A model generated the notes under the pieces. The model was not told where the DNA came from. It searched no databases and was given only the letters and a program-made list of their open reading frames with translations. A program made the position numbers and the translations under genes. A stretch of 64,000 nucleotides of DNA. Origin: Eledone cirrhosa. Taxonomy: Eukaryota. Shown piece after piece: positions 44,101 through 47,100 of this stretch. The first letter of the stretch is position 1. The number at the start of each line of letters is the position of its first letter. The DNA lies in NCBI GenBank assembly GCA_964016885.1, contig OZ024751.1, positions 31,434,001-31,498,000 of the forward strand, given 5' to 3'.

Positions 44101-47100
44101 AGATCATTACAGGATGTTAAGAGTTAATTTTTTTTCTATTTCAACAAAAATCAAAAGAGATAAAAAAAGCTCCCTTTATCTAATTAGACCATACACATTG
44201 CACCAGCTGTCTCTATTAACAGATAATAAACTATTTTATATATTTATTTATCCTGACTTATCTATTTTTTCCTTCTGTGTAAAATCTCTTTGCATTCTAG
44301 CAACTGTCTTTTATCTGAAGTAGTTCTGCTGTTTTTGCTAGTTTAGAAGTAAATGAATGCTTAGAATCATATTTCAATGCCTCTTATTTTTACTCTCCCT
44401 ACTTAATTTTATTTTATATTGAAACTATTTATAATTGTAATTTTTTGTTTTTATTGCCACCTCCCTAATTTGGCACCACTACTACCACTACTATTTCTAT
44501 TACTACATGACTCGCTCCAATGCTTGGCTTGCTGTTTTGGGTTGCTAGTCATATGCACTAAAGTTTGTAATTATTTTTAGTCGTGCTCTTTTGATATGAC
44601 ATTTCAATAGTGGTTCTTAAGCTGCATCGTTATGCTCTATTTAACATTATATAATACATCCACAGATTCTTTGTGCATGATAAAGTGTTTGATGCTGTGA
44701 CGCATAGACTGCAATGTATACATGGCATTACATGGCATTCAGTGATCATGTACATGTAATTCTAGTGTCTGAATAAATTATATATTTTAACTGGCTCTTC
44801 AATTTGTTTATACATCTAGACTATAAATAAATATATTTATATTATACTATTAATATTGATGCATTTTAAAATGCAGTTTGCATTATTTTGGTTTGAAATA
44901 TGGAAGGGAAAAGTGTTAATTTTAGTTGACATTTTGACCTTCATCCATCTTCATTATATTTGTTTGATAGTTTTGATTTGAAATATACAAACACTAAATA
45001 CTATATATATATATTTATAAACATTAAATACTATGTGTATATTTACAAACACTAAATACTATAAATATATATATATATATATATATATATATATATGTGT
45101 TAAGTATTTCCGTGGAAAAGGTAAAGGAAAGAAGAGTGCTCTATGTATAGTACAGAGCTATTTGATTATGTAATAAACAACACAATATAATTATTCTATT
45201 ACCCAAGGTTTCACGAAGTCAGACAATTCTAACAGAGGCGTCTGAAGTTGTTCATCAGATAGAAATCTTTAATTTGGATATAAGATATGAAACCTTGGGT
45301 AATGGAATAATTATATTGTGTTGTTACATAATTATATATAAACACTAAGTATTCTGTGTGTAATAATTATATATAAACACTAAGTATTCTGTGTGTAATA
45401 ATTATAAAAAGGTTGGTTTTGTTTATTTTGTGATGAAAAAAAATATTTTCAATAAGTTAAATTTAAATTTGTTTACTAAAATTGAAAGCAGTATTTTCAA
45501 TGATAAGTTATATTTGAGTTAATTTATTAAAATTGAAAGCAGTATTTTCAATAAGTTGTATTTAAATTTATTTACTAAGATTGAAAGCAGTATTGTCATT
45601 GACAAGTTATATTTAAATTTATTTACTAAAATATTCTGCTAGAAGAGTAGAAGTTTGATATATTATCAAGTGTTTTCATTGTTGATGCAAATTTCAATTG
45701 TTTAGAAATGACATACAAATGGTGATTATAAAATTTCATATTTCTTTCACAAGTATTTCTACCAATATAGCCATCTCATCTCAATATATTTAATCAATTA
45801 ACAATATTGATATACAGTAATTAATCATTTAATGTGATATCGCTTATTAAAGTGTATTTGAATTAACTAGAAACGCAAGTGAAAAACAAAAAGTAAAATA
45901 TAGTTGAACTTCTATATTTTTTTCTTTGTTTATAATCATCGAATTTGATAATGACCATAGCCTTGAATTGTGGATCTGTTGATGGCTGAGTTTTTATAGT
46001 GCAGCAGCAACAGAGGGTACAGCTGCACAGACAACCAGGGAATTGCAACAGCGGGTACAGCTGCACAATCAACTGGGGAATTGCAACAGAAGGTACGGCT
46101 GCATGAACAACCAAGGAATTGCAACAGCGGGTACAGCTGCACAGACAACCAGGGAATTGCAACAGAGAGTATGGTTGTACAATCAACTGATGCCATATAT
46201 GCTATCATAAGCAATAACAGTCACACTCAACTGGTTCCTCAAATACAGTCAAATTACGAGGGTAAATAAAAAGTACACACCTGCTTCACAGATGTGCAAC
46301 AAAACTGATATAGTGGGATATTAGAATTAGGCTTGATACAGCCGACAAAAAGCACCACTGATAATCCTCCATTCTAGCTACATACCGACTTTGTGTTGCT
46401 AATACTGCCTTTATTGAAATATTCTCTGAGAAGAAAGTATCCTCCAGGAACATGGGACTAGTTCCACCTTTGGAGCAACTCCAATACAAGACAGGCAAAC
46501 AGACCTGGACACACCAGTTGCAGAGGAAATTCTGTTCTTGATCTTATGTTACTGTATCATTATTCTTCCATCTTTTGTCCTCAAGATTAATCTTGAAGAC
46601 TGGTGAGTTGAGGGGACTTACCATCAGAGGTTATGGCAGACCACTGGTATTAAATGTGGACAGTTCCCTTCCTATGGGTGAGTCGAGAGAACTTACCATC
46701 AGAGGTTATAGCAGACCACTGGCATTGAATATGGACAGACCCCATCCTAAATCTTTGTTCTTGTTTGTAAAGCCAGTTCACAATGTCATTATCATCACCA
46801 TCATCGTTTTTATGTTCACTTTTCCATGCTGGCATCAGTTGGACAGGACATATTGAGGCAATGTGTAACAGCCAGATGCCCTTCCTGACACTAATCCTTT
46901 TATTGGCTTCTTGCTACATGTAAGAAGATGGTGTACTTATTCTAAACTGGATATAAATATCGTTATTCAACCAGGCCAGCATAGAATATATATATATATA
47001 TATATATATATATATATATATATATATATATATATATATGTGTAACACACATATAATATCATCAATTTCCCTTCTTTTTCTATGCTGGCATGGTTGAATT

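What the first reader, a model, noticed from the sequence alone, without database searches (positions are those of the whole stretch)
45194..45264. Intact hammerhead ribozyme antisense to CHD1, inside the chromodomain-1 intron
Seen: the minus strand has every hammerhead element in order: stem I ttctat/atagaa, CUGAUGA, stem II (ac/gt plus tcagac/gtctga), GAAA, a 3-bp stem III (acc/ggt, ttg loop) and a GUA triplet, predicting cleavage between 45200 and 45199. Established: short-stem-III type I hammerheads are characteristic of Penelope-like elements and retrozymes, and often need to dimerise to cleave. Seen: a 38-bp inverted copy (45288-45325) could base-pair with and sequester the GAAA/stem III half. 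Inference: an autoinhibited or switchable ribozyme that could cut only antisense transcripts, not the CHD1 pre-mRNA.
Basis: partly seen in the sequence, partly recalled or inferred. Interest (0 to 1): 0.75.

Follow-up and report, generated by a model that had tools for sequence, protein, structure and literature searches.

The report
Penelope transposon remnant carrying a hammerhead
An intron of a chromatin-remodelling gene holds a short, mirror-folded remnant of a Penelope-type jumping gene; its self-cutting RNA motif is really there but is predicted to be locked off by its own mirror copy, a layout shared by most sibling copies examined in this genome, so it is likely ordinary transposon debris and not a gene switch.

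Summary
It is not a locus-specific switch. It is the end (pLTR) of a 5'-truncated Penelope-like retroelement of the Hydra clade, inserted in (TA)n. The genome holds 86 exact-core matches. In 17 of 25 loci the same 3' tail runs straight into a decayed RT-endonuclease reading frame with the Hydra motifs. The 'sequestering arm' is the usual inverted 5'-truncated PLE copy: 20 of 27 insertions sampled without regard to the arm have one, 17 of those 20 with one long and one short end. The arm is transcribed first and costs the active fold about 31 kcal/mol, so it is predicted to be a lock. This copy also has two CpG-type changes that weaken stem II. No RNA data were available; cleavage is untested. 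The scan noted two-armed Penelope hammerhead repeats before on other DNA of this genome. Verdict: new member of a known kind, low interest.

The parts
45096..45292 (-). Long arm: 5'-truncated 3' end (pLTR) of a Hydra-clade Penelope-like element, with complete hammerhead and the long tail
   Evidence: 82-95% matches at dispersed loci; differs from the majority letter of 86 family arms at 4 of 197 positions
45194..45264 (-). Type I hammerhead ribozyme motif; predicted cleavage between 45200 and 45199
   Evidence: sequence; descriptor scan; pair counts on 60 copies
45201..45209 (-). Stem III, near-palindromic 9-mer able to form an intermolecular duplex (dimer-type)
   Evidence: self-duplex -8.2 kcal/mol, 8 pairs around one U-U
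45213..45251 (-). Stem II with two CpG-type transitions (45249, 45225) that weaken it in this copy
   Evidence: 7 of 68 and 7 of 73 arms share the window letter; family reads differ at the same places
45096..45158 (-). About 62-nt tail present on this arm only; its end is the 'long' terminus, which in ORF-bearing copies runs on into the leader and reading frame
45288..45338 (+). Short inverted arm: second, more truncated copy of the same 3' end, starting at GAAA and stopping at the 'short' terminus; no CUGAUGA; carries the substrate half-site
45288..45292 (.). 5-nt microhomology (TGAAA) shared by both arms at the head-to-head junction
   Evidence: family sequence continues differently on each side
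45060..45096 (.). (TA)n target tract; AT-rich short repeats with a similar unit flank both sides (44985-45060 and 45328-45397); no clear target-site duplication
38247..49058 (+). Host intron of CHD1/2, phase 1, inside chromodomain 1; the cut site is about 6.95 kb from the donor and 3.86 kb from the acceptor

Best explanation
This is a two-armed, 5'-truncated insertion of a Hydra-clade Penelope-like retroelement in a (TA)n tract of a CHD1 intron, and its hammerhead is a passenger that is predicted to be locked off by the inverted arm and likely has no role at this gene. Shown: the hammerhead motif, the dispersed family, the head-to-head arms with one long and one short end, the 5-nt junction overlap, the (TA)n flanks, and the continuity of the same 3' end with a Hydra-type RT-endonuclease frame elsewhere. 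Inferred mechanism of insertion: the element's endonuclease nicked both strands in (TA)n, each nick primed reverse transcription at one of two internal start sites about 62 nt apart (giving the long and the short end), both cDNAs stopped early (197 and 51 nt) and were joined at TGAAA. Inferred fate: neutral decay. In the parent element the hammerhead would process tandem precursor RNAs, probably as a dimer through the near-palindromic stem III or with protein help; in this copy any read-through RNA of either strand would fold into a roughly 51-bp hairpin instead.
For: Family: 1299 first-look candidates, 40 scored, 82-95% identical; 86 exact-core pattern matches against 0 for the reversed control. 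Architecture without selection for the arm: 20 of 27 insertions have an inverted head-to-head arm within 1.5 kb, 14 of the 20 cover stem III, 17 of 20 are long+short, 1 long+long, 2 intermediate+short; junction points vary from copy to copy. Parent: a walk upstream reached L131, where a 201-bp, 83% match to window 45091-45290 continues directly into a decayed RT-EN frame; 17 of 25 loci found with that leader (L131 itself included) have the tail directly in front, up to 94% identical over 64 nt. Hydra motifs RWK, DKT, CxCX5C, CxxC, CxH present and CCHH absent as defined in PMC8557442 section 11; nearest database proteins are about 700 aa, and P0003 (51% identical) reads by eye as nearly the same as the printed part of Hydra-2_Amil. 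Literature: inverted 5'-truncated copy, one-sided tail, (TA)n targets (PMC8557442); overlap at the inverted junction (PMC3846280); opposite-strand hammerhead pairs 100-700 bp apart (PMC4209133); nicking and extension of both strands, two internal RT starts, hammerhead not needed for insertion in vitro (PMC11167929). Lock: forcing the active fold costs about 31 kcal/mol with the arm and about 3 without. Decay: 4 transitions in 197 nt, two at CpG in stem II.
Against: No copy with more than 83% identity over the hammerhead itself was seen attached to the reading frame, so this subfamily may be a sister lineage or a non-autonomous derivative. All ORF copies examined are broken. Pfam gave no RT or GIY-YIG hit for 6 of 6 ORF fragments, and no RT tree was built. 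The catalytic core and stems I and III of this copy are undamaged, which neutral decay allows (about 2% divergence) but does not exclude selection. Folding energies ignore tertiary contacts, Mg2+ and proteins. Seven of 27 insertions had no arm by the script's rule (two of them show arm sequence by eye). The insertion mechanism is inferred from end positions only.
Confidence: 0.92

Rival explanations
1. Host-adapted switch: an antisense CHD1 transcript is cut by the hammerhead when the inverted arm is removed, bound or skipped.
For: Core, stem I and stem III intact; a U-G wobble of the family is a U-A pair here (45197); a transcript starting between about 45275 and 45265 would escape the arm (penalty 3.1-3.2 kcal/mol).
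Against: Arm is generic (20 of 27) and precedes the ribozyme; P(active) about 1e-22 with the arm, 6e-3 without; stem II weakened; the 45197 variant recurs in other copies (2 of 77 arms; several rows); metazoan PLE hammerheads tested in vitro cut poorly or not at all as monomers (PMC4209133) or only with protein (PMC11167929).
Confidence: 0.02
2. Non-autonomous retrozyme/SINE-like derivative: the copy comes from a short non-coding hammerhead RNA mobilised in trans by the Hydra-clade enzyme, not from a full-length element.
For: Most copies are short and non-coding; the closest ORF-linked hammerheads are only 83% identical; retrozymes are argued to derive from PLE pLTRs (10.64898/2026.07.22.740005).
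Against: No head-to-tail arrays of a fixed monomer in the loci examined; 5' ends are ragged and extend more than 1 kb into a low-complexity 3' UTR that chains to the endonuclease frame; tails 88-94% identical abut the frame.
Confidence: 0.1
3. The inverted arm arose after insertion by a local fold-back or replication template switch.
For: 5-nt microhomology at the junction; arms of one insertion share private variants more than arms of different insertions (51 shared in 2310 sites, 0 of 2000 permutations as high).
Against: The arm ends at the same fixed 'short' terminus as in unrelated loci, and the long+short pairing recurs in 17 of 20 insertions; a random fold-back would not stop at a family-wide site. 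Shared variants are expected of any single event from one source.
Confidence: 0.03
4. The hairpin, whatever its origin, matters to the host as double-stranded RNA in the CHD1 pre-mRNA (ADAR substrate, small-RNA source), without any ribozyme action.
Against: It lies 3.7 kb or more from either exon and has no meaningful complement elsewhere in the window (best other match E 0.04), so it cannot direct exon recoding; editing of it would be common and probably without effect.
Confidence: 0.05

Closest known systems
Hydra-clade Penelope-like elements, including Hydra-1_Obim of Octopus bimaculoides (Craig et al. 2021, PMC8557442; passages, section 11 and parts of the supplement read)
   Same: C-terminal endonuclease without CCHH, RWK, DKT, CxCX5C, CxxC and CxH motifs; (TA)n targets; type I hammerhead near the 3' end with a short palindromic stem III; inverted 5'-truncated copy (noted for Penelope-13_HM).
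   Different: The hammerhead sequence differs from that listed for Hydra-1_oBim; stem II is longer with an internal loop; the tail is about 62 nt against the 30-40 bp usually quoted; the 3' UTR of some subfamilies exceeds 1.5 kb.
Adineta vaga Penelope insertions with inverted pLTRs (Arkhipova et al. 2013, PMC3846280; passages read)
   Same: Head-to-head inverted pLTRs, tail on one arm only, overlap at the inverted junction.
   Different: Penelope/Poseidon-type elements with target-site duplications; here no duplication can be read in the (TA)n flanks.
PLE hammerheads (Cervera and de la Pena 2014, PMC4209133; parts 1-2 of 4 read)
   Same: Type I motif in the pLTR, long helix II, small palindromic helix III, mostly solo copies of truncated PLEs, opposite-strand pairs close together.
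   Different: Stem III here is 3 bp with a 3-nt loop, not the minimal form; the stem II closing pair is A-U or G-U, not the usual G-C.
Anolis Poseidon PAc (Frangieh et al. 2024, PMC11167929; parts 1-2 of 4 read)
   Same: Two discrete 3' ends that define the tail; AT-rich targets; hammerhead in the pLTR.
   Different: In PAc the ORF starts inside the hammerhead; here the frame starts downstream of the long terminus. Different clade.
Metazoan non-LTR retrozymes (10.64898/2026.07.22.740005, part 1 of 5 read; PMC7229834 listing only)
   Same: Type I hammerhead, non-coding copies, PLE link.
   Different: Defined by tandem monomers with a hammerhead in each; not seen here.

Membership tests
Type I hammerhead ribozyme | Core CUGANGA, GAAA, NUH in order, with three helices and stem I open | tested here: met
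   90.1% of 1188 cells paired in 60 copies against 26-55% for slid controls
Type I hammerhead ribozyme | Covariation of the stems | tested here: inconclusive
   13 cells with changes on both sides (4 of 500 shuffles as high), 7 pairs (81 of 500); related copies can give this without structure
Type I hammerhead ribozyme | Match to an Rfam hammerhead model | tested here: not met
   no hammerhead family among 44 matches at E<=10; that Rfam models miss long-stem-II PLE variants is my inference
Type I hammerhead ribozyme | Self-cleavage | not testable with these tools
   no bench data; no RNA run listed
Penelope-like element (EN+) | pLTR continuous with an RT plus C-terminal GIY-YIG-type frame | tested here: met
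   L131 and 17 of 25 leader loci; met for the family, the window copy itself has no frame
Penelope-like element (EN+) | Inverted 5'-truncated copy and one-sided tail | tested here: met
   20 of 27 two-armed, 17 of 20 long+short
Penelope-like element (EN+) | Placement in an RT phylogeny | not tested
   no tree built; Pfam silent on 6 of 6 fragments
Hydra clade | RWK and DKT motifs in RT | tested here: met
   RMRWKA and SDKTK in several loci; L131 has RWA
Hydra clade | CxCX5C linker, no CCHH, CxxC and CxH around the endonuclease end | tested here: met
   L128, L136, L139, L143; these are relatives at 65-80% of each other, not all shown to carry this exact hammerhead
Hydra clade | (TA)n insertion preference | tested here: met
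   TA or CA tracts at most outer ends; such tracts are very common in this genome and no background rate was computed
Hydra clade | Element shorter than 3 kb with a single ORF | tested here: inconclusive
   frame about 700 codons by homologues; no complete copy of this subfamily was found, and its 3' UTR is long
Non-LTR retrozyme | Head-to-tail tandem monomers each with a hammerhead | tested here: not met
   single or head-to-head copies in the loci
Host regulatory intronic ribozyme (CPEB3-like role) | Sense-strand, single-copy, conserved across species | tested here: not met
   antisense and multicopy; cross-species conservation could not be tested

The most novel reading that the evidence does not exclude
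The sense-strand arm (45289-45307) carries an intact stem III palindrome, GUA site and stem I strand, so the CHD1 pre-mRNA holds a substrate half-site that hammerheads transcribed from other copies of this family could cut in trans as a heterodimer once the AU-rich hairpin is loosened, for example by ADAR editing. That would make truncated Penelope arms in introns a genome-wide set of ribozyme targets. Computed energies are strongly against it (about 33 kcal/mol to open, about 11 gained), but it is not excluded experimentally.
Probability: 0.03. Interest if true: 0.7.

Novelty: new member of a known kind. Interest (0 to 1): 0.14.

Why it matters
For CHD1 it probably does not matter. It adds one more Hydra-clade PLE family with its own hammerhead to an octopus-type genome (taxon inferred, not tested). 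One family-level detail is useful: two-armed insertions almost always pair a long end with a short end (17 of the 18 with two clear ends; about 7e-5 if each arm chose either end at even odds, my arithmetic), which fits one enzyme complex priming both nicked strands from two different internal start sites. How PLEs make their inverted structures is named as an open question in PMC8557442, and these very short insertions are a convenient natural set for testing it.

Tried and rejected
1) A GIY-YIG frame 1.3 kb upstream of one copy (L050) looked like the parent; it belongs to a different, very abundant PLE family with its own hammerhead-like end, and only 1 of its 30 loci (the starting one) has our hammerhead. 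Rejected. 2) A pattern search for the long end followed by non-repeat letters found 3 matches, none leading into a frame. 3) The loose hammerhead pattern missed the site and was not above chance (23 matches, 17 of 100 shuffles as high). 4) Rfam: no hammerhead hit. 5) Sequencing runs: no RNA holder listed; laying 4 of 7 listed runs mostly drew family reads, no record spanned the insertion, so presence or absence in other individuals could not be read. 6) The two-arm share (22 of 29 loci by my reading) is biased because the query held the arm; the unbiased figure is. 7) Per-segment conservation is biased by selecting loci on the exact core and is not used. 8) For alignment A1, 4 of 64 core-bearing arms were left out (L010 plus arm, L024 minus arm, L138 as junction chimeras or deletions; L018 for an internal duplication). 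In one search, 2 of 30 loci gave no arm pair and were dropped. 9) Pfam did not name the RT or endonuclease fragments. 10) A look-up of this stretch in the scan's notes found no look-alike. No fold or complex prediction was run; it would not change the verdict.

Full report
1. Observation. The minus strand of 45264-45194 has all elements of a type I hammerhead in order: a 6-bp stem I, CTGATGA, a long stem II with an internal loop, GAAA, a 3-bp stem III and a GUA triplet, with the cut predicted between 45200 and 45199. A descriptor that demands the helices finds this one site in the window and none in 30 shuffled windows. Results that do not help the reading: Rfam has no hammerhead among 44 matches at E<=10, and the motif alone folds no better than shuffles and prefers another fold. 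The inverted copy spans 45288-45338 on the plus strand. The host gene is CHD1/2 by Pfam, and the intron 38247-49058 splits chromodomain 1.

2. It is a repeat. The 181-bp query drew 1299 first-look candidates in the 3.0-Gb genome, 40 scored, best hits 82-95% identical on many contigs. An exact pattern for stem I, core and stem III matches 86 times, the reversed control 0 times. Copies sit in TA or CA tracts. On 60 aligned copies 90.1% of cells keep the hammerhead pairs against 26-55% for slid controls; true compensatory change is weak (13 cells, 4 of 500 shuffles as high), which is what a decaying family gives and is not proof of structure.

3. The inverted arm is not special. Among the first 30 pattern matches (27 insertions, chosen on the core only) 20 have a head-to-head inverted arm within 1.5 kb; 14 of these cover stem III as here; 17 pair a long end with a short end, 1 has two long ends, 2 have an intermediate end (a few 'short' ends are cut by later insertions). 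Inner junctions differ from copy to copy; here the arms overlap by 5 nt. Arms of one insertion share private variants more often than arms of different insertions (51 in 2310 sites; 0 of 2000 permutations, 28 of 30 loci), yet differ at about 6% of sites, so they come from one source and then decayed apart. This layout is in print as the PLE norm: inverted 5'-truncated copy and a tail at one end (PMC8557442, passages), overlap at the inverted junction (PMC3846280, passages), opposite-strand hammerhead pairs (PMC4209133, parts 1-2 of 4).

4. The parent. A first candidate frame near one copy belonged to another family. Walking 5' through a long low-complexity UTR led to an endonuclease frame, and at L131 a 201-bp match to the window arm (83%) runs straight on from the long end into a decayed RT-endonuclease frame. 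Searching with that leader gave 25 loci, of which 17 (L131 included) have the tail directly in front, up to 94% identical over 64 nt, and many have an inverted arm as well. The frame has the motifs that define the Hydra clade (PMC8557442 section 11): RWK, DKT, CxCX5C, CxxC, CxH, no CCHH. It follows Hydra-1_Obim motif by motif by eye (supplement), and its nearest database relatives are about 700 aa (215 hits); one of the best, P0003, reads by eye as nearly the same as the printed part of Hydra-2_Amil. The published Hydra hammerheads have the same short palindromic stem III, but Hydra-1_oBim's sequence is different (part 2 of 59 of the supplement; the rest was only searched). Limits: no tree, Pfam silent, and no ORF-linked hammerhead above 83% identity, so the exact subfamily may be a sister or a non-autonomous offshoot.

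5. How it most likely works. In the parent element the hammerhead would process tandem precursor RNA, probably as a dimer: stem III is a near-palindrome with a -8.2 kcal/mol self-duplex. Tested metazoan PLE hammerheads cut little or not at all as monomers, and in Anolis PAc the hammerhead needs protein and is dispensable for insertion, while the enzyme nicks and extends both strands and starts at two internal sites that define the tail (PMC11167929, parts 1-2 of 4). Applying that here (inference): both nicks in (TA)n primed cDNA, one from each start site, both stopped early, and the heads were joined at the microhomology. Self-priming on an antisense template, proposed in PMC3846280, is the published alternative.

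6. Is this copy active? Probably not. On the minus strand the arm is made first. Forcing the active fold costs about 31 kcal/mol with the arm and about 3 without; only transcripts starting within roughly 10-20 nt of stem I escape. The copy differs from the family majority at 4 of 197 positions, all transitions, two at CpG in stem II, one of which breaks a pair. Four sibling hammerheads score 3- to 25-fold higher for the active fold than this one. On the sense strand there is no CUGAUGA, so no cis-cleavage of the pre-mRNA; the substrate half-site in the arm costs 32.6 kcal/mol to expose against about 11 gained. These are secondary-structure models only.

7. Novelty. Known kind, unlisted member: searches for octopus with hammerhead or Penelope and the Craig et al. 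table did not show this hammerhead; Repbase and Dfam could not be checked, bioRxiv supplements are closed, and dimer cleavage work by Lunse et al. 2017 is recalled, not read. The scan's notes describe other two-armed Penelope hammerhead families with two fixed ends in this genome (summaries only, unchecked) and nothing like this stretch by sequence. That the host is an octopus is inferred from the likeness to Hydra-1_Obim, the genome's size and those notes. Interest 0.14.

Noticed in passing
L061-L091 (e.g. G000:C2:139731836-139732291): A second, very abundant PLE family (25,385 first-look candidates, 150 scored, 91-96% protein identity) with a Zn-finger linker before GIY-YIG and its own hammerhead-like end with a 2-bp stem III, also ending in (TA)n.
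   Followed up: partly
L025:1543-1617 and 2284-2358: Both arms of one insertion carry the same core change (CTGATCA), which would kill catalysis: either mobilised without an active ribozyme or homogenised after insertion.
   Followed up: no
L136, L203, L204, L208, L141: Sister Hydra subfamilies share stem III and the tail but have a different stem II; L136 shows inverted pLTR, RT-EN fragment and pLTR in one locus.
   Followed up: partly
window 18834-26669: About 7.8-kb tandem array of a 48-nt unit, open in one frame for 2611 codons.
   Followed up: no
window 27386-28478: Second tandem array with a 48-nt unit, open in several frames; related sequence near 37495-37999.
   Followed up: no
window 57780-58934 (minus): 384-codon open LINE-type reverse transcriptase fragment inside a CHD1 intron.
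   Followed up: no
window 35314-35793: Fragment of another LINE-type element (C-terminal part), common in the fetched loci.
   Followed up: no
window 46007-46196 and 46602-46749: 38-nt unit in about five tandem copies and a 75-nt unit in two copies in the same intron.
   Followed up: no
window 45097-45158: The tail holds two small hairpins, one just inside each terminus, reminiscent of the stem-loop at which PAc reverse transcription starts.
   Followed up: no
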